A DNA stretch of 64,000 bases from Escherichia coli (lineage in GTDB: Bacteria; Pseudomonadota; Gammaproteobacteria; Enterobacterales; Enterobacteriaceae), in NCBI RefSeq assembly GCF_003018235.1, contig NZ_CP027437.1; one strand, written 5' to 3'. The translations under genes and the position numbers were made by a program. The notes beneath the pieces are model-generated. The model saw only the letters and a program-made list of their open reading frames with translations, was not told where the DNA came from and ran no database searches. Of this stretch, positions 28,138 through 41,349 are shown one piece after another (positions within the stretch are counted from its first letter, which is position 1; the number at the start of each line of letters is the position of its first letter).

Positions 28138-31100
28138 ATGGGTAAAGGCAGCAGTAAGGGGCATACTCCGCGCGAAGCGAAGGACAACCTGAAGTCCACG
28201 CAGTTGCTGAGTGTGATCGATGCCATCAGCGAAGGGCCGGTTGAAGGTCCGGTGGACGGATTAAAAAGCGTGCTGCTGAACAGTACGCCAGTGCTGGACA
28301 CTGAGGGGAATACCAACATCTCCGGCGTCACGGTGGTGTTCCGGGCCGGTGAGCAGGAGCAGACTCCGCCGGAGGGGTTTGAATCCTCCGGTTCCGAGAC
28401 GGTGCTGGGTACGGAAGTGAAATATGACACGCCGATCACCCGCACCATCACGTCGGCAAACATCGACCGTCTGCGCTTTACCTTCGGTGTGCAGGCACTG
28501 GTGGAAACCACCTCAAAGGGGGACAGGAATCCATCGGAAGTCCGCCTGCTGGTTCAGATACAGCGTAACGGTGGCTGGGTGACGGAAAAAGACATCACCA
28601 TTAAGGGCAAAACCACCTCGCAGTATCTGGCCTCGGTGGTGGTGGATAACCTGCCGCCGCGCCCGTTTAATATCCGGATGCGCAGGATGACGCCGGACAG
28701 CACCACAGACCAGCTGCAGAACAAAACGCTCTGGTCGTCATACACCGAAATTATCGATGTGAAACAGTGCTACCCGAACACGGCACTGGTCGGCGTGCAG
28801 GTGGACTCGGAGCAGTTCGGCAGCCAGCAGGTGAGCCGTAATTATCATCTGCGCGGGCGTATTCTGCAGGTGCCGTCGAACTATAACCCGCAGACGCGGC
28901 AATACAGCGGTATCTGGGACGGAACGTTTAAACCGGCATACAGCAACAACATGGCCTGGTGTCTGTGGGATATGCTGACCCACCCGCGCTACGGCATGGG
29001 GAAACGTCTTGGTGCGGCGGATGTGGATAAATGGGCGCTGTATGTCATCGGCCAGAATTGCGACCAGTCGGTGCCGGACGGCTTTGGCGGCACGGAGCCG
29101 CGCATCACCTGTAATGCCTGGCTGACCACACAGCGCAAGGCGTGGGATGTGCTCAGTGATTTCTGCTCGGCGATGCGCTGTATGCCGGTATGGAACGGGC
29201 AGACGCTGACGTTCGTGCAGGACCGGCCATCGGATAAGGTGTGGACCTATAACCGCAGTAATGTGGTGATGCCGGATGATGGCGCGCCGTTCCGCTACAG
29301 CTTCAGCGCCCTGAAGGACCGCCATAATGCCGTTGAGGTGAACTGGATTGACCCGAACAACGGCTGGGAGACGGCGACAGAGCTTGTTGAAGATACGCAG
29401 GCCATTGCCCGTTACGGTCGTAATGTCACGAAGATGGATGCCTTTGGTTGTACCAGTCGGGGGCAGGCACACCGCGCCGGGCTGTGGCTGATTAAAACGG
29501 AGCTGCTGGAGACGCAGACCGTGGACTTCAGCGTGGGCGCAGAAGGGCTTCGCCATGTACCGGGCGATGTCATTGAAATCTGCGATGATGACTATGCGGG
29601 GATCAGCATCGGCGGGCGCGTGCTGGCGGTGAACAGCCAGACCCGGACGCTGACGCTCGACCGTGAAATCACGCTGCCATCCTCCGGTACCACGCTGATA
29701 AGCCTGGTTGACGGAAGTGGCAATCCGGTCAGCGTGGAGGTCCAGTCCGTCACCGACGGCGTGAAGGTGAAAGTGAGCCGTGTTCCTGACGGCGTTGCAG
29801 AATACAGCGTGTGGGGGCTGAAGTTGCCGACGTTGCGCCAGCGCCTGTTCCGCTGTGTGAGTATCCGTGAGAACGATGACGGCACGTATGCCATCACTGC
29901 CGTGCAGCATGTACCGGAAAAAGAGGCCATCGTGGATAACGGGGCGCACTTTGACGGCGACCAGAGCGGCACGGTGAATGGTGTCACGCCGCCAGCGGTG
30001 CAGCACCTGACCGCCGAAGTCACCGCAGACAGCGGGGAATATCAGGTGCTGGCGCGCTGGGACACGCCGAAGGTGGTGAAGGGCGTGAGCTTCCTGCTCC
30101 GTCTGACCGTAACAGCGGATGACGGCAGTGAGCGGCTGGTCAGCACGGCCCTGACGACGGAAACCACATACCGCTTCAGGCAACTGGCGCTGGGGCGTTA
30201 CACGCTGACGGTCCGGGCGGTAAATGCGTGGGGACAGCAGGGCGATCCGGCATCGGTATCGTTCCGGATTGCCGCACCGGCTGCGCCGTCGCGGATTGAG
30301 CTGACGCCGGGCTATTTTCAGATAACCGCCACGCCGCATCTTGCGGTTTATGATCCGACGGTACAGTTTGAGTTCTGGTTCTCGGAAACGCGGATTACCG
30401 ATATCAGGCAGGTTGAAACCACAGCCCGCTACCTTGGCACGGGGCTGTACTGGATAGCCGCCAGTATCAATATCAAACCGGGCCATGATTATTACTTTTA
30501 TATCCGCAGTGTGAACATCGTTGGCAAATCGGCATTCGTGGAGTCCGTCGGTCGGGCGAGCGATGATGCGGAAGGTTACCTGGATTTTTTCAAAGGCAAG
30601 ATAACCGAATCCCATCTCGGCAAGGAGCTGCTGGAAAAAGTCGATCTGACGGAGGATAACGCCAGCAGACTGGATGAGTTTTCGAAAGAGTGGAAGGATG
30701 CCAACGATAAATGGAATGCCATGTGGGCTGTCAAAATTGAGCAGACCAAAGACGGCAAACATTATGTCGCGGGTATTGGCCTCAGTATGGAGGACACGGA
30801 GGAAGGCAAACTGAGCCAGTTTCTGGTTGCCGCTAACCGTATCGCGTTTATTGACCCGGCAAACGGGAATGAAACGCCGATGTTTGTGGCGCAGGGCAAT
30901 CAGATATTCATGAACGACGTGTTCCTGAAACGCCTGACGGCCCCCACCATTACCAGTGGTGGAAATCCACCGGCATTTTCCCTGACACCGGATGGGCGGC
31001 TGACGGCGAAAAATGCCGATATCAGCGGTAACGTGAATGCGAACTCCGGGACGCTCAACAACGTCACGATTAACGAGAACTGTCGGGTTCTGGGAAAACT

Positions 31101-31533
31101 GTCCGCGAACCAGATTGAAGGCGATCTCGTTAAAACAGTGGGCAAAGCTTTCCCCCGGGACTCCCGTGCACCGGAACGGTGGCCATCAGGGACCATTACC
31201 GTCAGGGTTTATGACGATCAGCCGTTTGACCGGCAGATTGTTATTCCGGCGGTGGCATTCAGCGGCGCTAAACATGAGAGAGAGCATACTGATATTTACT
31301 CCTCATGCCGTCTGATAGTGCGGAAAAACGGTGCTGAAATTTATAACCGTACCGCGCTGGATAATACGCTGATTTACAGTGGCGTTATTGATATGCCTGC
31401 CGGTCACGGTCACATGACGCTGGAGTTTTCGGTGTCAGCATGGCTGGTAAATGACTGGTATCCCACAGCAAGTATCAGCGATTTGCTGGTTGTGGTGATG
31501 AAGAAAGCCACCGCAGGCATCAGTATCAGCTGA
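28138..31533 (+). CDS. Host specificity protein J (central tail fibre), 1131 aa
   Basis: Size and position as lambda gpJ, following M-L-K-I. Confidence 0.95.
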
Positions 31534-31599
31534 ATTTTATAACCCATATACGGGCACCAGAAATGGTGCTTTTTTTTTGCAGAAAAGCGAGAGGTAATT

Positions 31600-32199
31600 A
31601 TGCGTAAACTTTATGCCGCCATTTTGTCCGCAGCCATTTGTCTGGCCGTATCCGGTGCGCCTGCATGGGCATCTGAACATCAGTCCACGCTGAGCGCGGG
31701 GTATCTTCATGCCTCGACGAACGTTCCCGGCAGCGATGATCTTAACGGGATTAACGTGAAATACCGTTATGAGTTTACGGACACACTGGGGCTGGTGACG
31801 TCATTCAGCTATGCAGGAGACAAGAATCGCCAGCTTACCCGTTACAGCGATACCCGCTGGCATGAAGATTCCGTTCGTAACCGCTGGTTCAGCGTGATGG
31901 CGGGGCCGTCTGTGCGCGTGAATGAATGGTTCAGCGCGTATGCGATGGCGGGTGTGGCTTACAGCCGTGTGTCGACTTTCTCCGGGGATTATCTCCGCGT
32001 AACTGACAACAAGGGGAAAACGCACGACGTGCTGACCGGAAGTGATGACGGTCGCCACAGCAACACGTCTCTGGCGTGGGGAGCTGGCGTGCAGTTTAAC
32101 CCGACCGAATCCGTGGCCATTGATATTGCTTATGAAGGCTCCGGCAGTGGCGACTGGCGCACTGACGGTTTCATCGTGGGTGTCGGTTATAAATTCTGA
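31600..32199 (+). CDS. lom: Lom-like outer membrane protein (Ail/Lom family)
   Basis: Signal peptide, beta-barrel alternation and C-terminal GVGYKF. Confidence 0.9.
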
Positions 32200-32226
32200 T
32201 TAGCCAGGTAACACAGTGTTATGACA

Positions 32227-32252
32227 GCCCGCCGGTTCAGGCGGGCTTTTTT
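32227..32252 (+). terminator. Rho-independent terminator after lom
   Basis: Hairpin gcccgcc-ggttca-ggcgggc followed by tttttt. Confidence 0.75.
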
Positions 32253-32263
32253 GTGGGGTGAAT

Positions 32264-35200
32264 ATGGCAGTAAAGATTTCAGGTGTACTGAAAGACGGCA
32301 CAGGAAAACCGGTACAGAACTGCACAATCCAGCTGAAAGCAAAACGTAACAGCACCACGGTGGTGGTGAACACGCTGGCCTCAGAAAATCCGGATGAAGC
32401 CGGGCGTTACAGTATGGACGTTGAGTATGGTCAGTACAGCGTTATTCTGTTGGTGGAGGGATTCCCGCCGTCACATGCCGGGACTATCACCGTGTATGAA
32501 GATTCTCAACCCGGTACGCTGAATGATTTTCTCGGTGCCATGACGGAGGATGATGCCCGTCCGGAGGCACTGCGCCGTTTTGAAGTGATGGTGGAAGAGG
32601 TGGCGCGTAACGCGTCCGCAGTGGCACAGAACACGGCAGCCGCGAAGAAGTCAGCCGGCGATGCCAGCACATCAGCCCGTGAGGCGGCAACCCATGCGAC
32701 TGATGCTGCAGACTCAGCACGCGCAGCCAGCACGTCAGCCGGACAGGCCGTGTCGTCGGCTCAGTCAGCGTCTTCCAGCGCAGGAACTGCATCAGCAAAG
32801 GCCACTGAAGCATCAAAAAGTGCTGCCGCTGCAGAGTCCTCAAAAAGCGCGGCGGCCACCAGTGCCGGTGCGGCAAAAACGTCAGAAACGAATGCTTCAG
32901 CGTCACAACAATCAGCAGCCACTTCTGCATCCACCGCGACCACGAAAGCGTCAGAAGCTGCCACCTCAGCCCGGGATGCGGCGGCCTCAAAAGAGGCAGC
33001 GAAATCATCAGAAACGAACGCATCCTCGAGCGCCAGTAGTTCCGCTTCCTCGGCAACGGCGGCAGGAAATTCCGCGAAGGCGGCAAAAACGTCCGAGACG
33101 AACGCCAGGTCTTCTGAGACGGCAGCGGGACAGAGCGCCTCAGCTGCGGCAGGCTCAAAAACAGCGGCTGCATCATCTGCCAGTGCCGCGTCAACAAGTG
33201 CCGGGCAGGCCTCAGCCAGTGCCACTGCCGCCGGAAAATTGGCAGAAAGCGCTGCATTGTCCGCTTCAACAGCCACAACGAAGGCTGGCGAAGCCGCTGA
33301 ACAGGCCAGCGCAGCAGCGAGGTCTGCATCCGCAGCGAAGACATCCGAAACGAACGCGAAAGCGTCGGAAACCAGTGCAGAATCCTCAAAAACGGCAGCT
33401 GCATCGTCCGCCAGTTCGGCGGCGTCATCGGCATCATCTGCGTCTGCTTCAAAAGATGAGGCGACCAGACAGGCATCAGCAGCGAAAGGCAGCGCCACGA
33501 CGGCATCCACGAAGGCGACAGAGGCTGCTGGCAGTGCGACGGCGGCAGCACAGAGCAAGAATACGGCAGAATCCGCAGCAACGCGCGCCGAGACAGCAGC
33601 TAAACGGGCAGAGGATATTGCATCCGCCGTGGCGCTTGAGGATGCAAGTACGACGAAAAAGGGGATAGTACAGCTCAGCAGTGCGACCAACAGTTCGTCT
33701 GAAACGCTGGCGGCAACGCCAAAGGCAGTAAAATCAGCCTATGACAATGCAGAGAAACGTCTGCAGAAAGACCAGAACGGCGCTGATATACCCGATAAGG
33801 GACGCTTCCTGAACAACATTAACGCGGTCAGTAAAACAGACTTTGCTGATAAGCGTGGTATGCGTTATGTGCGGGTTAACGCTCCTGCAGGTGCAATATC
33901 TGGAAAATATTACCCTGTTGTTGTTATGCGTTCTGCTGGCTCAGTAAGCGAACTGGCATCAAGGGTCATTATCACCACGGCAACGCGAACCGCAGGCGAT
34001 CCGATGAATAACTGCGAGTTTAACGGATTTGTTATGCCTGGTGGCTGGACTGACAGGGGGCGTTATGCTTATGGAATGTTCTGGCAATATCAAAACAATG
34101 AACGAGCCATCCACTCAATAATGATGAGTAATAAGGGCGATGATTTGCGCTCTGTGTTCTATGTTGATGGCGCTGCTTTCCCTGTTTTTGCGTTTATCGA
34201 AGATGGCCTGTCAATATCCGCACCTGGTGCTGATCTCGTTGTTAATGATACGACCTATAAGTTTGGGGCAACAAATCCGGCGACTGAATGTATCGCGGCG
34301 GACGTTATCCTTGATTTTAAGAGTGGGCGTGGTTTTTATGAGTCTCATTCGTTAATTGTTAACGATAACTTGTCGTGCAAAAAACTTTTTGCCACAGACG
34401 AAATTGTAGCGCGTGGTGGTAATCAGATTCGAATGATAGGTGGGGAGTATGGTGCATTATGGCGTAATGATGGCGCTAAAACTTACCTGCTGCTTACCAA
34501 TCGAGGTGATGTTTATGGTGGCTGGAATACATTAAGACCGTTTGCTATTGATAACGCAACCGGCGAACTGGTTATTGGAACCAAACTGTCCGCAAGTCTG
34601 AACGGTAATGCATTAACAGCAACAAAGCTGCAAACGCCAAGACTGGTTTCTGGTGTTGAGTTTGATGGTTCCAAAGATATTACTTTAACCGCCGCGCATG
34701 TGGCTGCTTTTGCCAGAAGGGCAACGGATACATATGCCGATGCGGATGGTGGCGTTCCCTGGAATGCCGAATCAGGCGCTTACAATGTCACCCGCTCTGG
34801 CGACAGCTATATTCTGGTTAACTTCTATACCGGAGTCGGAAGTTGCCGGACCCTGCAGATGAAGGCGCATTACAGAAATGGTGGTCTGTTCTACCGTTCT
34901 TCAAGAGATGGCTATGGTTTTGAGGAAGACTGGGCAGAAGTTTATACCTCGAAAAATCTTCCACCAGAAAGCTACCCAGTCGGCGCACCAATCCCGTGGC
35001 CATCAGATACCGTTCCGTCTGGTTATGCCCTGATGCAGGGGCAGACTTTTGACAAATCTGCCTACCCGAAACTTGCAGCCGCTTATCCGTCAGGCGTGAT
35101 CCCTGATATGCGTGGCTGGACGATTAAGGGCAAGCCCGCCAGTGGTCGTGCCGTATTGTCTCAGGAACAGGATGGCATTAAATCGCATACCCACAGCGCC

Positions 35201-35677
35201 AGCGCATCCAGTACGGATTTGGGGACGAAAACCACATCGTCGTTTGATTACGGCACTAAATCCACGAATAACACCGGGGCGCATACGCACAGTCTGAGTG
35301 GCTCTACGGGGTCTGCCGGTGCTCATACTCATGGTAATGGTATTCGTTGGCCAGGAGGCGGCGGTTCTGCGTTAGCATTTTATGATGGCGGTGGGTTCAC
35401 TTATGTCCAGGATTCACAGTATCAAGTAAGCCCGGGGACTTCTTCCAGTAGATCGTATTATCAACGTATTCAGACACAGTCAGCAGGTGCTCATACCCAC
35501 TCGCTGTCTGGTACTGCAGCAAATGCTGGCGCACATGCACATACTGTAGGTATTGGTGCGCATACGCACTCGGTTGCGATTGGGTCACATGGACACACCA
35601 TCACCGTTAACGCTGCTGGTAACGCGGAAAACACCGTCAAAAACATCGCATTTAACTATATTGTGAGGCTCGCATAA
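32264..35677 (+). CDS. stf: Side tail fibre protein Stf
   Basis: N-terminus [26 protein letters not shown]; ~330-residue Ala/Ser/Thr-rich repeat region; C-terminal GAHTHS His-x-His repeats. Confidence 0.9.
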
Positions 35678-36252
35678 TGGCATTCAGAATGAGTGAACAA
35701 GCACGGACCATAAAAATTTATAACCTGCTGGCCGGAACTAATGAATTTATTGGTGAAGGTGACGCATATATTCCTCCTCATACAGGTCTGCCTGCAAACA
35801 GTACCGATATTGCACCGCCAGATATTCCGGCTGGCTTTGTGGCTGTTTTCAACAGTGATGAGGCATCGTGGCATCTCGTTGAAGACCATCGGGGAAAAAC
35901 GGTCTATGACGTGGCTTCCGGCGACGCGTTATTTATTTCTGAACTCGGCTCATTACCGGAAAATGTCACCTGGTTATCCCCGGAAGGGGAGTTTCAGAAG
36001 TGGAACGGTACAGCCTGGGTGAAGGATACGGAAGCAGAAAAACTGTTCCGGATCCGGGAGGCGGAAGAAACAAAAAACAGCCTGATGCAGGTAGCCAGTG
36101 AGCATATAGCGCCGCTTCAGGATGCTGTGGATCTGGAGATCGCAACGGAGGAAGAAACCTTGTTGCTGGAAGCCTGGAAAAAGTATCGGGTGTTGCTGAA
36201 CCGTGTTGATACATCAACTGCACCGGATATTGAATGGCCAGCCCTACCGTAG
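35677..36252 (+). CDS. tfa: Tail fibre assembly protein Tfa
   Basis: 191 aa; start overlaps stf stop (ATAATGG). Confidence 0.85.
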
Positions 36253-36349: not shown

Positions 36350-36940
36350 TTATATATCAGGTGTCTGATTTTTTGCTTTAGCTCTTAAAATGGTTTGCCG
36401 CGAGGTTTTGAATTCTTGGGCAATGTCACTTATATTTATACCTGACTTAATTTGCTCTAGTACCCTCTGTATTTGTTCATCATTTAACACAGGTGGGCGA
36501 CCAAATCGCTTTCCTGCGCCCCGTGCTCTTAATATCCCTGAATGAGTACGCTCAAGTAAAAGGTCTCGCTCAAATTCAGCGACTGCTGAAATTACTTGCA
36601 TCATCATTTTTCCAGGTGGACTGGTCAGGTCAACGCCCCCCAATGCTAAGCAATGCACTTTGATACCTGCTTTGGTCAGTTGTTCCACCGTTTTACTGAT
36701 ATCCATTGGATTACAACCGAGGCGATCCAGTTTTGTGACAATCAATGCATCACCTCTTTTCAGTCGATCAAGCAACTGGTTAAAACCAGGACGCTCACTG
36801 GTTGCTGCTGAGCCGCTAATTTGTTCTTCAATTATTTGCTGAGATTTGATGTTAAAACCTGCACTTTCGATTTCCCGACGTTGATTTTTGGTTGTCTGTT
36901 CCAGAGTTGATACCCGACAGTAAGCATAAATTCGAGACAT
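36350..36940 (-). CDS. pinQ: Serine recombinase (Pin/Gin-type DNA invertase homologue), 196 aa
   Basis: N-terminal catalytic YCRVSTLEQ and C-terminal HTH; matches K-12 PinQ in size and position. Confidence 0.85.
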
Positions 36941-37258
36941 AGTGAGATCTTCTATACGAAATTGGTGTACATATCATAATGCATCTCAGAAAATAATTTT
37001 GATTATTTTTGTACATATTTGTATGTACACGTTCGAAAATAAACGAATGCGTATGCAACCCCGTAATTTTGGTGAGACCCAAAATCGATTTTGTGAAAAA
37101 TGGCCTTAACTCGGTTTGTTTTTCGAGTTCCGGGGGGACTCAAGGAAGAAGAATAGTGTTGCGTGTTATTTTAACCAGATTTCAAGTTGTTTGGTCGTGA
37201 AAAAGTGGAGCAAAATGTTGTTAAAGTGGAAAAATGATAAAAAAGTAAGTTTATTATA

Positions 37259-37492
37259 TTACATTTTACCATTTAAATTTTTGTTGTCTTTAAGAACTGA
37301 TATCGCTGTTTGTAATAATTCTTTGTTATCCAGCCATGACTTTTTCTTTATGTTTCCTTCAATGTAATCAAGCAATGTTCTGGTATTGATAGGTCTTCCC
37401 TGTTTTGCTACTTCCACTACAGCATCCCCTAGGATAATTCTTACTTCAGGAAGCTGCGCAGGGAACCACTTTAGGGTGTCTTTTGATTTCAT
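37259..37492 (-). CDS. ydfK: Small protein YdfK (YnaE family), 77 aa
   Basis: MKSKDTLKWFPAQLPEVRIILGDAVVEVAKQGRPINTRTLLDYIEGNIKKKSWLDNKELL... Confidence 0.85.
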   Translation of the reverse strand: MKSKDTLKWFPAQLPEVRIILGDAVVEVAKQGRPINTRTLLDYIEGNIKKKSWLDNKELLQTAISVLKDNKNLNGKM

Positions 37493-38277
37493 GAAGATAT
37501 TCCTTAAAATATTATTGATTTTCATTGCGATATTGTATGTCTGATTCAGGATATGTTGACTTATACATCGGTTTTGTCTGGGTTATTGGATATGCCAATC
37601 CCTAATTTTATTAGAGCATGACTAAAAATGCTGAATATGATAAGGAGCGAAGTGATTATCAGTATGCTGTTCATATAGCCTCGAATTAGTAATGTGTTAT
37701 ATATGATATAGTTGACAATTTTTATCCTGGGTGTTCTTAAAGTTCGTAGATAAACATTGTCGTTTCAGGTATACAGGAATGCTAACAGGTGGCGGCAAAA
37801 ATCAGGCGGTTTATGGCGCAAGCTGAAGTGGCAACTGCAAACTATCTTATGCAGAGACTCTACACGGATTGGGTTTAAAAGTATACATAGATAACAGTTT
37901 TTATCTGAAGAAGAAAAATATCAAGGTGATATAGCCTATATGCCTTTGATGCGGAGGAATGAATGTGATGGGAGTGATGTATCTGAATAGTTGAAAAACC
38001 GCAGACACGCCTTATGCAAGAACGTGCTGCGGTTGGCTGGTAAATTTTTCGATAGTGCGAGTATTGAATGATTTCCAGCCGTTATTGATTTTACGCGTAA
38101 ATCCATGAAAAAACTACTTATCTGTTGGGGAGTTTTTTTGGGGCATATATGGGACAGAAATAGGCCCCAGATAGACACTGAGATCGAACTTAGGATGCTT
38201 TTTAAAAAATGCAACTATCTGAAAAAACCTAGAAAACGCCAAGGAAACCACAGGATGGGAAAAAACACCTGTGAATT

Positions 38278-39561
38278 ATGGATTTCCAGTTATATTCGCT
38301 CGGCGCAGCGTTAGTGTTTCATGAAATATTTTTTCCTGAATCATCAACGGCAATGGCGTTAATTCTGGCAATGGGAACCTACAGTGCAGGTTATGTGGCG
38401 CGTATTGTCGGAGCATTTATTTTCGGCAAAATGGGCGACAGAATCGGGCGTAAAAAAGTGCTCTTTATTACCATCACTATGATGGGGATCTGTACCACCT
38501 TAATTGGTGTGCTGCCGACCTATGCACAAATTGGTGTGTTTGCGCCAATTTTGCTGGTGACGCTGCGTATTATTCAGGGGCTGGGGGCAGGCGCGGAAAT
38601 TTCCGGTGCCGGCACGATGCTGGCGGAATATGCACCAAAAGGTAAGCGCGGAATTATCTCCTCATTTGTGGCTATGGGAACTAACTGCGGAACCTTGAGC
38701 GCAACGGCAATCTGGGCCTTTATGTTCTTCATTCTCAGTAAAGAGGAACTGCTGGCGTGGGGATGGCGTATACCGTTCCTGGCGAGCGTTGTCGTGATGG
38801 TCTTTGCTATCTGGTTGCGTATGAATCTGAAAGAAAGCCCGGTCTTTGAGAAGGTTAACGACAGCAACCAACCGACAGCAAAACCTGCACCTGCTGGTAG
38901 CATGTTCCAGAGCAAATCCTTCTGGCTGGCAACAGGGCTGCGTTTTGGTCAGGCTGGTAACTCCGGTTTAATTCAGACTTTCCTTGCAGGCTATTTAGTA
39001 CAGACGTTATTGTTTAACAAAGCAATTCCAACAGATGCATTGATGATCAGTTCGATTCTCGGCTTTATGACCATTCCGTTCCTTGGTTGGTTATCCGATA
39101 AAATTGGTCGCCGGATCCCGTATATTATTATGAATACCTCCGCGATTGTGCTGGCATGGCCAATGCTTTCTATCATCGTAGATAAAAGCTATGCCCCGAG
39201 CACCATTATGGTGGCACTGATTGTGATTCATAACTGTGCGGTGCTGGGATTATTTGCTCTGGAAAACATTACCATGGCAGAAATGTTCGGCTGTAAAAAC
39301 CGCTTTACCCGGATGGCCATTTCTAAAGAAATTGGTGGTCTTATCGCTTCCGGTTTTGGTCCTATCCTGGCGGGTATTTTCTGCACCATGACGGAGTCCT
39401 GGTATCCGATCGCCATTATGATCATGGCATATTCAGTGATTGGTTTAATCTCTGCGCTGAAAATGCCAGAAGTGAAAGACCGTGATTTAAGTGCGCTGGA
39501 AGACGCTGCGGAAGATCAACCGCGTGTTGTCAGAGCTGCGCAACCTTCCAGAAGTCTTTAA
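38278..39561 (+). pseudogene. ydfJ: MFS metabolite:H+ symporter YdfJ, N-terminally truncated by the prophage insertion
   Basis: 427-aa ProP/KgtP-like transporter ORF; in-frame stop 2 codons upstream of the first Met. Confidence 0.8.
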
Positions 39562-39649
39562 ATCCTCAATCCCTTCTCTTACCGGAGAGGGGATTTTTAT
39601 TCATATAACAAAACATGTAGCTTGCCATATTTAAATTTAAGGAATTGTT

Positions 39650-41110
39650 ATGGGAAATAATTTGTTATCAGCAAAAGCGACGCTCCCTGTTTATGATCGT
39701 AATAACCTGGCCCCAAGAATTGTTCATTTAGGCTTTGGCGCATTTCACCGTGCGCATCAGGGCGTGTATGCCGATATTCTTGCTACAAAACATTTCAGTG
39801 ATTGGGGATATTATGAGGTCAACTTAATCGGCGGCGAACAGCAAATTGCCGATTTACAACAGCAAGATAATCTTTATACCGTTGCGGAAATGTCGGCCGA
39901 TGCGTGGACGGCTCGCGTCGTTGGCGTCGTTAAAAAAGCCTTGCACGTACAGATTGATGGCTTAGAAACCGTGTTGGCTGCGATGTGTGAACCGCAAATC
40001 GCGATTGTCTCTCTGACAATCACCGAAAAAGGGTATTTCCACTCTCCGGCGACCGGACAGTTAATGCTCGATCACCCGATGGTCGTTGCCGACGTACAAA
40101 ATCCCCACCAGCCGAAAACTGCAACAGGGGTGATTGTCGAGGCGCTGGCTCGCCGTAAAGCGGCAGGACTTCCCGCATTTACCGTCATGTCATGTGACAA
40201 CATGCCAGAAAACGGTCATGTTATGCGTGACGTTGTCACTTCCTACGCGCAAGCTGTTGATGTAAAACTGGCACAATGGATCGAAGAAAACGTGACTTTC
40301 CCATCAACAATGGTGGACCGTATTGTGCCCGCAGTGACAGAGGATACGCTGGCGAAAATCGAACAACTTACCGCTGTGCGCGATCCTGCTGGCGTTGCAT
40401 GTGAACCTTTCCGCCAGTGGGTAATAGAAGATAACTTTGTTGCCGGACGTCCGGAATGGGAAAAAGCGGGAGCCGAACTGGTTAGTGATGTGCTGCCTTA
40501 TGAAGAGATGAAGTTGCGCATGCTCAACGGCAGTCATTCATTCCTGGCGTATCTGGGTTATCTTGCCGGATATCAGCACATTAATGACTGCATGGAAGAT
40601 GAACATTATCGTCATGCAGCGTATGCCTTGATGTTGCAGGAACAAGCGCCGACGTTGAAAGTGCAGGGCGTTGATTTGCAAGATTACGCTAATCGATTAA
40701 TTGAACGCTATAGCAACCCGGCGCTACGTCATCGAACCTGGCAGATTGCGATGGATGGCAGCCAGAAATTGCCACAGCGGATGTTGGATTCTGTTCGCTG
40801 GCATCTGGCGCATGACAGCAAGTTCGATCTGCTGGCGCTGGGCGTCGCAGGTTGGATGCGTTATGTCGGTGGTGTTGATGAACAGGGAAATCCGATAGAA
40901 ATCAGTGACCCACTGTTACCTGTTATTCAGAAGGCTGTACAAAGTAGTGCCGAAGGGAAAGCGCGCGTCCAGTCATTGCTGGCGATTAAGGCGATCTTTG
41001 GTGATGATTTGCCAGACAATAGCTTGTTTACTGCAAAAGTGACGGAAGCGTACTTGTCTTTATTAGCGCATGGTGCGAAAGCGACCGTGGCGAAATATTC
41101 CGTGAAGTAA
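39650..41110 (+). CDS. ydfI: Mannitol/mannonate dehydrogenase-family oxidoreductase YdfI
   Basis: 486 aa with N-terminal Rossmann motif GFGAFHRAH. Confidence 0.85.
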
Positions 41111-41145
41111 AAAAAGCAATGCCGCCATCGGCGGCATTCACACGC

Positions 41146-41349
41146 TTAGTTCATGCCGAGACGAATCAGGTCCAGAGGTGCCAGTTTCTCTTCACAACCT
41201 TCAACAACTACGGTTTTTCCGCGGCGGATTTGCTCAGCGGTCAGACCTTCAGTATCAATCGACAGGATCTTGCCAGTGTGACCGGTGCCGCTAACCATAA
41301 CACGGCTGCCAGTGGTGATTGCGTTACGGTTACGATCGTAGGTCGTCAT
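41146..41349 (-). CDS. ydfZ: Small protein YdfZ (67 aa)
   Basis: [67 protein letters not shown]. Confidence 0.85.

What the first reader, a model, noticed from the sequence alone, without database searches (positions are those of the whole stretch)
32590..33640. Extreme Ala/Ser/Thr-rich repeat region inside the side tail fibre gene
About 330 residues of the fibre consist of degenerate repeats of the type AAKTSETNA(K/R)SSETAAG. The DNA is so repetitive and GC-skewed that three long spurious ORFs appear on other frames or strands. Such repeats are prone to slipped-strand and recombinational length variation, and the following HxH-rich C-terminal domain (GAHTHS repeats) is the probable receptor-binding tip.
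Basis: partly seen in the sequence, partly recalled or inferred. Interest (0 to 1): 0.3.

Follow-up and report, generated by a model that had tools for sequence, protein, structure and literature searches.

The report
Coiled-coil shaft of side tail fibre
The alanine/serine/threonine-rich stretch is the already-described rod-like coiled-coil shaft (50 unbroken seven-residue repeats) of an ordinary E. coli prophage side tail fibre; its length is stable rather than hypervariable, and the part that really varies between relatives is a short cassette at the fibre's far tip.

Summary
The tract is real (ORF aa 113-462, nt 32594-33643; 72% Ala+Ser+Thr) and lies in an intact lambda-Stf/K-12-StfR-type side tail fibre gene, in a lambdoid prophage at the E. 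coli Qin site. It has no 17-residue repeat. It is 50 consecutive, indel-free heptads of the form xxAxxSA, with no higher-order period. Heptad positions 3, 6 and 7 are almost invariant among relatives although their codons vary freely, which is the signature of a coiled-coil core. The equivalent lambda segment was described in 2025 as the trimeric proximal coiled coil of gpStf.

The DNA is not repetitive: there is no tandem array, and the longest exact repeat (14 nt) matches codon-shuffled expectation. It is T-poor, not GC-skewed. That composition explains the three spurious ORFs, which are not conserved in relatives.

Length is stable: 47 of 54 related phage loci have the same length, as do K-12 and most sampled E. 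coli genomes. Rare variants differ mostly by whole heptads; lambda is 15 shorter.

The C-terminus is homologous to the T4 gp37 tip (E = 7e-84), and all seven HxH motifs are conserved. Real hypervariability sits in the 30-67-residue cassette between HxH motifs 3 and 4.

Verdict: ordinary and already known.

The parts
32264..35677 (+). stf, the side tail fibre gene (1137 aa from ATG 32264; the mechanical ORF starts 2 codons earlier at GTG 32258)
   Evidence: ORF; Pfam PF08400, PF21446, PF07484 and PF03335; 99.7% identical to an annotated gene in NZ_CP075852 that starts at the ATG; 96.8% identical to K-12 stfR
32264..32545 (+). N-terminal collar domain that anchors the fibre to the tail tip
   Evidence: ORF aa 3-96 match PDB 9e7m/9mgh 'Tail fiber protein', E = 7e-52; in Ur-lambda, residues 1-94 of gpStf form the collar on gpV/gpM (PMC12617516)
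32594..33643 (+). The finding: 50 uninterrupted heptads xxAxxSA (ORF aa 113-462), the proximal coiled-coil shaft
   Evidence: Heptad register and column composition; periodicity z = 7-10; core positions 3/6/7 nearly invariant; AF2 predicts helix over aa 101-310 and 326-457; the lambda counterpart is described as the proximal coiled coil, residues 102-393
33420..33438 (+). The only DNA tandem micro-repeat in the gene (9 nt x 2.1; encodes ASS-ASS)
   Evidence: TRF; relatives P0046 and P0087 lack exactly 3 residues here
33659..33694 (+). Conserved [12 protein letters not shown] motif that starts the hinge or next module; used here as the C-side anchor for measuring shaft length
   Evidence: region aa 442-523 matches Mu tail fibre protein S 5yvq, E = 3e-28
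34250..34549 (+). T4 gp34-like trimerisation domain in the distal half
   Evidence: Pfam PF21446, E = 5e-27, aa 665-764; PDB 4uxe/5nxf, E about 1e-11
34967..35674 (+). T4 gp37-type collar, needle and tip module with seven HxH motifs
   Evidence: PDB 2xgf, E = 7e-84, aa 904-1139, all HxH aligned; HxH coordinates
35333..35491 (+). Hypervariable tip cassette between HxH motifs 3 and 4 (probable receptor-contacting head)
   Evidence: The only non-conserved block in the C-terminal alignment; 11 clusters at 60% identity among 48 relatives, one of which looks like a mis-segmentation; this cassette is in 719 of 5426 E. coli genomes, against 4733 for the shaft; it aligns to the T4 gp37 segment that holds the receptor-binding residues 933-953
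35677..36252 (+). tfa, the tail fibre assembly chaperone; its start overlaps the stf stop by one base
   Evidence: Pfam PF02413, E = 2e-44; annotated tfaQ in the closest genome
32487..33581 (-). Spurious ORF (364 aa) caused by the tract's composition
   Evidence: stop counts per frame; not kept open in relatives
32661..33668 (+). Spurious ORF (335 aa, frame +2 of stf)
   Evidence: only 2% T at codon position 2 removes stops in this frame; broken in 11 of 47 relatives
32761..33690 (-). Spurious ORF (309 aa)

Best explanation
The tract encodes the proximal shaft of a trimeric lambda-Stf/StfR-type side tail fibre. It is a continuous alpha-helical coiled coil of 50 heptads. Its core stripe is made of very small residues: Ala at heptad position 3, Ser at position 6 and Ala at position 7.

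It works as a thin, stiff spacer. It holds the distal hinge and the gp37-like receptor-binding needle about 50 nm from the N-terminal collar that clamps the fibre to the tail tip. That estimate is an inference: 350 residues at about 0.15 nm each, roughly 16 nm longer than the lambda shaft.

The nucleotide oddities (61% GC, 12% T, open alternative frames) are by-products of the Ala/Ser/Thr/Glu/Lys codon set.

The shaft is not a mutational hot spot. Length changes are rare and nearly always remove or add whole heptads, so the coiled-coil register is kept. Host-range variation is carried by exchangeable distal modules and, within the gp37-like module, by the short cassette between HxH motifs 3 and 4.

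Shown here: the heptad anatomy, the core conservation, the length statistics, and the homologies of both ends. Taken from the literature: the trimeric coiled-coil state and the rod shape. Inferred: the physical length and the spacer role.
For: - Heptad anatomy: 50 in-register heptads with no indel. Position 3 is Ala in 46 of 50, position 6 is Ser in 36 of 50, position 7 is Ala in 35 of 50. Periodicity z = 7-10 at every multiple of 7 and nowhere else. No larger repeat.
- Structural constraint: among 48 distinct same-length sequences, amino-acid-variable columns number 6, 5 and 7 of 50 at positions 3, 6 and 7, against 17-25 of 50 at the other positions. Synonymous variation is equal or higher at the core positions, 27-35 of 50. 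Codon differences are 2041 synonymous against 890 non-synonymous.
- Helix: the AF2 monomer model gives helix over aa 101-310 and 326-457, with pLDDT 72-87 over the first 200 residues.
- Literature: in Ur-lambda gpStf, residues 102-393 are the proximal coiled-coil domain of a trimeric fibre, seen as a rod by cryo-ET (PMC12617516).
- Identity of the gene.
- Length stability: 47 of 54 loci. The shaft matches 4733 of 5426 complete E. coli genomes, 3584 of them at 80% coverage or more, and sampled full-length hits are all 1281/1281 nt, including K-12 sublines.
- Heptad-quantised variants: 8 of 12 distinct indels among close relatives are multiples of 7 (224, 112, 105 x3, 28 x2, 14), P = 5e-5. 27 of 36 diverse cluster representatives are in phase with the query. 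A Viterbi heptad model keeps one phase through nearly all relatives, whatever their distal module.
- No repetitive DNA.
Against: - No trimer could be modelled or measured here. The oligomeric state and rod shape rest on the lambda paper, where this segment is an AlphaFold3 model fitted to cryo-ET density, not an atomic structure.
- An Ala/Ser core is atypical for a stable coiled coil.
- The AF2 monomer model is only moderately confident (mean pLDDT 65.7). It breaks at aa 311-325 and folds back.
- Four of 12 indels are out of phase (3, 3, 220 and 253 residues), so the register constraint is not absolute.
- The samples of relatives are not independent, and they are biased toward E. coli.
Confidence: 0.85

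Rival explanations
1. One reading: the tract is a hypermutable repeat whose copy number changes often by slipped-strand mispairing or intragenic recombination, giving fibre-length variation between strains and ambiguous assemblies.
For: Length variants exist among relatives, and several have endpoints in short shared motifs. A 3-residue deletion coincides with the 9-nt micro-repeat. Four IMG/VR contigs end inside the tract. The tract is multi-copy in genomes: median 2, up to 13 places.
Against: There is no tandem DNA array. The longest exact repeat is 14 nt, which equals the codon-shuffled expectation and is shorter than the roughly 25 bp usually needed for RecA recombination (the RecA figure is from my own knowledge). 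47 of 54 loci have the same length at 89-97% identity, as do independent K-12 assemblies. A spacing of exactly 254 residues is kept even between tracts that are only 30-60% identical. Contig breaks are explained by paralogous prophages, not by internal repeats.
Confidence: 0.05
2. The tract mainly serves as a conserved stretch of DNA homology in which recombination between co-resident prophages swaps distal receptor-binding modules. This is complementary to the structural role rather than exclusive of it.
For: The same N-terminal domain and shaft are joined to at least four unrelated distal modules, at different shaft lengths and always in the same heptad phase. There are 2-13 copies per genome at 88-97% identity. 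Engineered lambda Stf chimeras that fuse the N-terminal part to foreign C-terminal parts are functional (PMC11338833).
Against: The strong position-specific amino-acid constraint, with free synonymous change, shows selection on the protein, not on the DNA. No recombination junction was mapped at the DNA level here.
Confidence: 0.35
3. The tract is an intrinsically disordered, low-complexity or glycosylated linker rather than a folded rod.
For: 72% Ala+Ser+Thr. BLAST's low-complexity filter masks it.
Against: It has a strict 7-residue register over 350 residues, an invariant 3/6/7 stripe, and almost no Pro or Gly. It is predicted helical. A rod is seen in Ur-lambda.
Confidence: 0.03
4. One of the long alternative-frame ORFs is a real overlapping gene.
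For: Three ORFs of 309-364 aa overlap the tract.
Against: They are explained by codon composition: T is 2% at codon position 2, and stop counts in the tract are 0, 1 and 1 in those frames. Stops interrupt them in relatives. Their translations are low-complexity Pro/Arg/Gln- or Leu/Pro/Trp-rich strings.
Confidence: 0.01

Closest known systems
Bacteriophage lambda (Ur-lambda) side tail fibre gpStf
   Same: Same gene order (J - lom - stf - tfa). The N-terminal collar domain is homologous (PDB 9e7m, E = 7e-52). The xxAxxSA heptad shaft is the same, followed by the [12 protein letters not shown]-type hinge motif and a gp37-like HxH C-terminus.
   Different: The lambda shaft is exactly 15 heptads (105 aa) shorter, with the gap best placed after ORF aa ~309-313. 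This protein carries an extra gp34-like middle module (1137 against 774 aa) and a different tip cassette.
E. coli K-12 StfR (Rac prophage), and the Qin-site stf/tfaQ/pin cluster
   Same: 96.8% nt identity over 95% of the gene. The shaft length is identical (1281/1281 nt at 95.9%). A Pin-type recombinase follows tfa. The chromosomal neighbours ydfK, ynfT, ydfJ and ydfI are those annotated beside the best-matching genome's copy; that these mark the K-12 Qin site is my own knowledge.
   Different: The matched span is 51 nt shorter in the K-12-lineage records than the 3420-nt query (3369 nt), and the shaft itself has identical length. Here the prophage gene is intact at the Qin position.
T4 long tail fibre gp37 receptor-binding tip (PDB 2XGF)
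   Same: 236 residues align at E = 7e-84. All seven HxH motifs, the collar and the C-terminal strand are conserved. In T4 these histidines bind the iron ions of the needle (from my knowledge of Bartual et al. 2010).
   Different: The segment that aligns to the T4 receptor-contacting residues 933-953 (PMC6957217) is unrelated and 18 residues longer here. T4 gp37 has no heptad shaft of this kind ahead of the tip.
Proximal shafts of the T5 L-shaped fibre pb1 (8hqz) and T7 gp17 (7boz)
   Same: Weakly similar Ala/Ser/Glu/Asn heptad strings, including 'SE.NA' motifs.
   Different: E-values are marginal (0.028 and 0.11) and driven by composition. Homology is not established.
Alanine-zipper trimeric coiled coils (e.g. 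Lpp-56 variants)
   Same: Small-residue core in a parallel trimer. This is recalled from memory and was not tested.
   Different: No sequence relationship. Here Ser also occupies a core-flanking position, and the coil is about 7 times longer.

Membership tests
Lambda Stf / StfR side tail fibre family | N-terminal 'prophage tail fibre N-terminal' collar domain | tested here: met
   PF08400, E = 8e-72, full length 1-134 of 134; PDB 9e7m, E = 7e-52
Lambda Stf / StfR side tail fibre family | Gene position after J and lom, followed by a Tfa chaperone gene | tested here: met
Lambda Stf / StfR side tail fibre family | Long proximal coiled-coil segment after the collar | tested here: met
   50 heptads; helix predicted; lambda counterpart described in PMC12617516
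Lambda Stf / StfR side tail fibre family | Assembles as a trimer on the virion and speeds adsorption | not testable with these tools
   Needs virions or a multimer model; only a monomer prediction was available
T4 gp37-type receptor-binding needle | Sequence homology to the solved tip | tested here: met
   2xgf, E = 7e-84 over aa 904-1139
T4 gp37-type receptor-binding needle | Seven HxH motifs in conserved positions | tested here: met
   Seven motifs, each aligned to a gp37 HxH; invariant in relatives
T4 gp37-type receptor-binding needle | Iron binding; OmpC/LPS recognition by the tip | not testable with these tools
   The tip segment is unrelated to that of T4, so the receptor cannot be inferred
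Canonical alpha-helical coiled coil | Unbroken heptad periodicity | tested here: met
Canonical alpha-helical coiled coil | Large hydrophobic residues at the a/d core positions | tested here: not met
   The core stripe is Ala/Ser/Ala, i.e. an alanine-zipper-like variant; only 9 Val/Leu/Ile in 354 residues
Slipped-strand contingency repeat | Tandem, near-identical DNA units | tested here: not met
   TRF finds only 9 nt x 2.1; longest exact repeat is 14 nt, equal to the shuffle expectation
Slipped-strand contingency repeat | Copy-number differences between close relatives or within a lineage | tested here: not met
   47 of 54 loci have identical length; K-12 sublines are identical; only two 3-residue variants

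The most novel reading that the evidence does not exclude
Shaft length may be a selected 'ruler' that exists in a few discrete, heptad-quantised classes. The distance from the collar to the hinge motif is 359 residues in this and most E. coli copies, and 254 in lambda-type fibres (15 heptads fewer).

Two observations point this way. The 254 spacing is reached with the 'missing' 15 heptads at clearly different places relative to this tract. It is also kept exactly in tracts only 30-60% identical to this one.

Two readings follow. The total rod length could be tuned, for example to the depth of the O-antigen or capsule layer or to the geometry of the central fibre. Alternatively, the 50-heptad form could have arisen by a single unequal crossover between two diverged 35-heptad alleles. 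The near-equivalence of all heptads (xxAxxSA) would make such in-register length jumps tolerable.
Probability: 0.3. Interest if true: 0.35.

Novelty: already known. Interest (0 to 1): 0.15.

Why it matters
It matters little as a discovery. The gene is annotated in thousands of E. coli genomes, and its lambda counterpart has a published architecture.

The practical value is corrective:
- Gene callers and readers should ignore the three long alternative ORFs.
- The tract should not be treated as a variable-number repeat or as an assembly artefact.
- Anyone interested in host range, or in engineering this fibre, should look at the exchangeable distal modules and the 159-nt tip cassette (35333-35491), not at the shaft.

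The heptad-quantised length classes are a small, testable observation about how fibre length evolves.

Tried and rejected
- AF2 on the C-terminal HxH module (aa 901-1139, 13-sequence alignment) gave mean pLDDT 43.9. This is expected for one chain of an intertwined trimer. It was not used, and no fold search was run.
- AF2 on the shaft could only be run as a monomer. The helix-break-helix hairpin at aa 311-325 is probably a monomer or alignment artefact.
- tblastn against phage genomes masked the tract as low complexity, so coverage figures there are meaningless. Only the spans were used.
- The top 120 hits of the word-indexed protein search were biased to same-length relatives. Less biased samples were taken from loci chosen by the N-terminal domain and from 50%-identity representatives.
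- I looked for a higher-order (17-residue, 105-residue or other) repeat and found none.
- I looked for an invertible segment served by the downstream recombinase and found no convincing inverted repeats.
- An apparent +132-nt variant (H107) turned out to be a duplicated hinge motif after an unchanged shaft.
- PDB matches of the tract alone (T5 pb1, T7 gp17) are too weak to claim homology.
- I could not establish which strain the window comes from, so 'same strain, different assemblies' was tested only on K-12 sublines.
Full report
WHAT IS THERE. The window region reads J (28138-31533), lom (31600-32199), a 1139-codon ORF (32258-35677), a tail fibre assembly gene (35677-36252) and, on the other strand, a resolvase/invertase (36350-36940). 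The long ORF carries the Pfam domains phage_tail_N (E = 8e-72), Gp34_trimer, Collar and Phage_fiber. It is 99.7% identical to an annotated 'prophage tail fiber N-terminal domain-containing protein' of E. coli S19-651 and 96.8% identical to K-12 stfR. In the best-matching genome the cluster is followed by ydfK, ynfT, a truncated ydfJ and ydfI; from my own knowledge of K-12 that is the Qin prophage site. Homologues and the RefSeq annotation start at ATG 32264 (MAVKISG), two codons inside the mechanical ORF. Residue numbers below are those of the mechanical ORF.

CHECKING THE OBSERVATION. ORF aa 112-465 contain 131 Ala, 82 Ser and 40 Thr out of 354 residues.

The tract is not built from units of about 17 residues. 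Autocorrelation shows a single periodicity of seven. Identity at lag 7 is 0.41 (z = 10.3), z is 6.8-9.2 at every multiple of 7 up to 63, and no signal appears at other lags. Written in rows of seven, aa 113-462 form 50 consecutive heptads without a single insertion or deletion. The consensus is xxAxxSA: position 3 is Ala in 46 of 50 rows, position 6 is Ser in 36, and position 7 is Ala in 35. No larger period exists. The highest identity at any multiple of 7 (0.429) is below the mean maximum of heptad-shuffled controls (0.446). The motif AAK(T/S)SETNA occurs four times at irregular spacings.

The DNA is not repetitive. Tandem Repeats Finder reports only a 9-nt x 2.1 micro-repeat at 33420-33438. 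The longest exact direct repeat is 14 nt, against a mean of 12.1 in codon-shuffled controls, and 14.5% of shuffles reach 14. Dispersed copies are 60-88% identical, mostly spaced at multiples of 21 nt. The tract is not GC-skewed (skew -0.09 to +0.02). It is GC-rich (about 0.61) and T-poor (12% T, AT skew up to 0.49).

The three long alternative ORFs exist and follow from composition. Codon position 2 is 66% C and 2% T, and stop counts inside the tract are 0, 1 and 1 in the three frames concerned. In 47 same-length relatives these frames are not preserved. The +2 frame has stops in 11, the -2 frame in all 47, and the -3 frame in 45. They are artefacts.

WHAT THE TRACT IS. Four lines of evidence point to the proximal coiled-coil shaft of the fibre.
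1. It has an unbroken heptad register over 350 residues.
2. It shows position-specific constraint. Among 48 distinct same-length sequences, only 6, 5 and 7 of 50 columns vary in amino acid at heptad positions 3, 6 and 7, against 17-25 of 50 at positions 1, 2, 4 and 5. Synonymous codon variation is as frequent or more frequent at the constrained positions, 27-35 of 50. Overall, 2041 synonymous codon differences stand against 890 non-synonymous ones. This pattern fits a buried a/d/e-type stripe.
3. An AlphaFold2 monomer model built on a 36-sequence alignment predicts helix over aa 101-310 and 326-457, with pLDDT 72-87 in the first 200 residues. Mean pLDDT is only 65.7, and the model breaks and folds back at aa 311-325, which is probably a monomer artefact.
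4. [quoted passage not shown]

The N-terminal 94 residues here match that paper's deposited collar chain (9e7m, E = 7e-52).

The core of Ala/Ser/Ala is unusual for a coiled coil, because the canonical hydrophobic a/d feature is not met. The oligomeric state could not be tested here. At about 0.15 nm per residue the shaft would be about 52 nm long, roughly 16 nm longer than the lambda equivalent (inference; arithmetic).

IS ITS LENGTH UNSTABLE? I measured the distance from the end of the collar domain (RRFE) to the conserved hinge motif [12 protein letters not shown].
- Of 80 IMG/VR loci retrieved with the N-terminal domain alone, 54 have both anchors. Of these, 47 have exactly the query's spacing (359), 4 have 254, and one each has 345, 247 and 139. 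The 47 are 88.7-96.7% identical in nucleotide sequence.
- In complete E. coli genomes the shaft matches 4733 of 5426 genomes, 3584 of them at 80% coverage or more. Every single-piece full-length hit in a spread sample of 60 rows spans exactly 1281 nt, including independent K-12 assemblies. Lambda-type copies are 315 nt shorter.
- An apparent +132-nt variant proved to be a duplicated hinge motif behind an unchanged shaft.

Among close relatives I found 12 distinct indels. Eight are multiples of seven residues: 224, 112, 105 at three positions, 28 at two positions, and 14. Four are not: -3, +3, 220 and 253. The binomial probability is P = 5e-5. Several indels have 2-5 shared residues at both endpoints (AAK, SETNA, AATSA). 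The 112- and 28-residue deletions match the 336- and 84-nt spacings of the degenerate DNA copies. The 3-residue deletion coincides with the 9-nt micro-repeat. Among 36 diverse cluster representatives with both anchors, 27 are in phase with the query, with 11 at 254, 5 at 247 and 5 at 359. A heptad Viterbi model keeps a single phase through almost every relative, including fibres with unrelated distal modules joined after shafts of about 128, 216, 233, 241 or 346 residues.

The tract is therefore length-conserved and heptad-quantised, not slippage-prone. Contigs that end inside it (L014, L022, L024, L076), and the many 'partial' database proteins of 735-910 residues, reflect paralogous prophage copies: a median of 2 and up to 13 places per genome.

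AN UNEXPLAINED DETAIL. The 254 class is reached with the missing 15 heptads at clearly different places. For P0131 the best gap lies after aa 206 (242 of 254 identities, against 179 if it is placed at 311). For P0129, L012 and lambda-like L083 it lies after about 311. Exactly 254 is also kept in tracts only 30-60% identical to this one. Selection on total length would explain this. So would an origin of the 50-heptad form by one unequal crossover between two diverged 35-heptad alleles. I could not decide between them.

THE C-TERMINUS. Residues 904-1139 align to the solved T4 gp37 tip (2XGF) at E = 7e-84, and all seven HxH motifs are matched. From my knowledge of the 2XGF paper, these histidines coordinate the iron ions of the needle.

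The HxH motifs and their flanks are nearly invariant among relatives. The segment between motifs 3 and 4 (aa 1026-1078, nt 35333-35491) is replaced wholesale: 11 clusters at 60% identity, of 31-67 residues, among 48 relatives, although one of the 11 looks like a mis-segmentation. This segment aligns to the T4 region that holds the receptor-contacting residues 933-953 (PMC6957217), and it is unrelated to and 18 residues longer than the T4 sequence. This particular cassette is present in 719 of 5426 E. coli genomes. A monomer AF2 model of the module failed (pLDDT 43.9), as expected for an intertwined trimer.

COMPARISON WITH WHAT IS KNOWN, AND VERDICT. The feature is the known proximal coiled-coil shaft of a lambda-Stf/StfR-family fibre in a common E. 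coli prophage. The membership features that could be tested are met: collar domain, gene order, heptad shaft, Tfa partner, gp37-like tip. The features that define a contingency repeat were tested and are not met. Novelty: already known. Interest is low. The only mildly new point is the heptad-quantised, few-class length distribution.

Noticed in passing
window 32226-32257: Terminator-like hairpin (8 pairs, 7 of them G-C) followed by a T run, between the lom stop codon and the stf start. A second such site lies after J, at 31552-31571.
   Followed up: partly
window 32258-32266: The mechanical ORF starts at GTG 32258, but the RefSeq annotation of the 99.7%-identical gene and nearly all homologues start at ATG 32264 (MAVKISG).
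   Followed up: yes
window 36350-36940 (-): A Pin-type serine recombinase (Resolvase + HTH_7) lies directly after tfa. No convincing inverted repeats flank the stf 3' end or tfa, so there is no evident invertible segment; it looks like an orphan invertase.
   Followed up: partly
window 37000-41200; L081 11002-14853: The genes after the recombinase in the closest genome are ydfK, ynfT, a 5'-truncated ydfJ and ydfI. From my own knowledge of K-12, this means the prophage occupies the Qin integration site.
   Followed up: partly
L082 (NZ_CM136175) aa 467-522 of its stf: The hinge motif [12 protein letters not shown]... is duplicated about 43-44 residues apart, behind a shaft of unchanged length. 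This explains an apparent +132-nt length variant.
   Followed up: yes
L014, L022, L024, L076: Four IMG/VR contigs end inside the heptad tract. Many database homologues are 'partial' at 735-910 aa. These are probably assembly breaks caused by several paralogous stf copies per genome.
   Followed up: partly
window 35333-35491: The tip cassette between HxH motifs 3 and 4 is swapped among at least about ten unrelated versions in relatives, while the flanking HxH needle sequence is nearly invariant.
   Followed up: partly
window 28738-30762 (-): A 674-aa antisense ORF lies inside the J gene. It may be another composition artefact like the three in the stf tract.
   Followed up: no
window 32594-33643, compared with PDB 8hqz and 7boz: The T5 L-shaped fibre pb1 and T7 gp17 contain weakly similar Ala/Ser/Glu/Asn heptad strings with 'SE.NA' motifs (E = 0.028 and 0.11). 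This may be a common design for fibre shafts.
   Followed up: no
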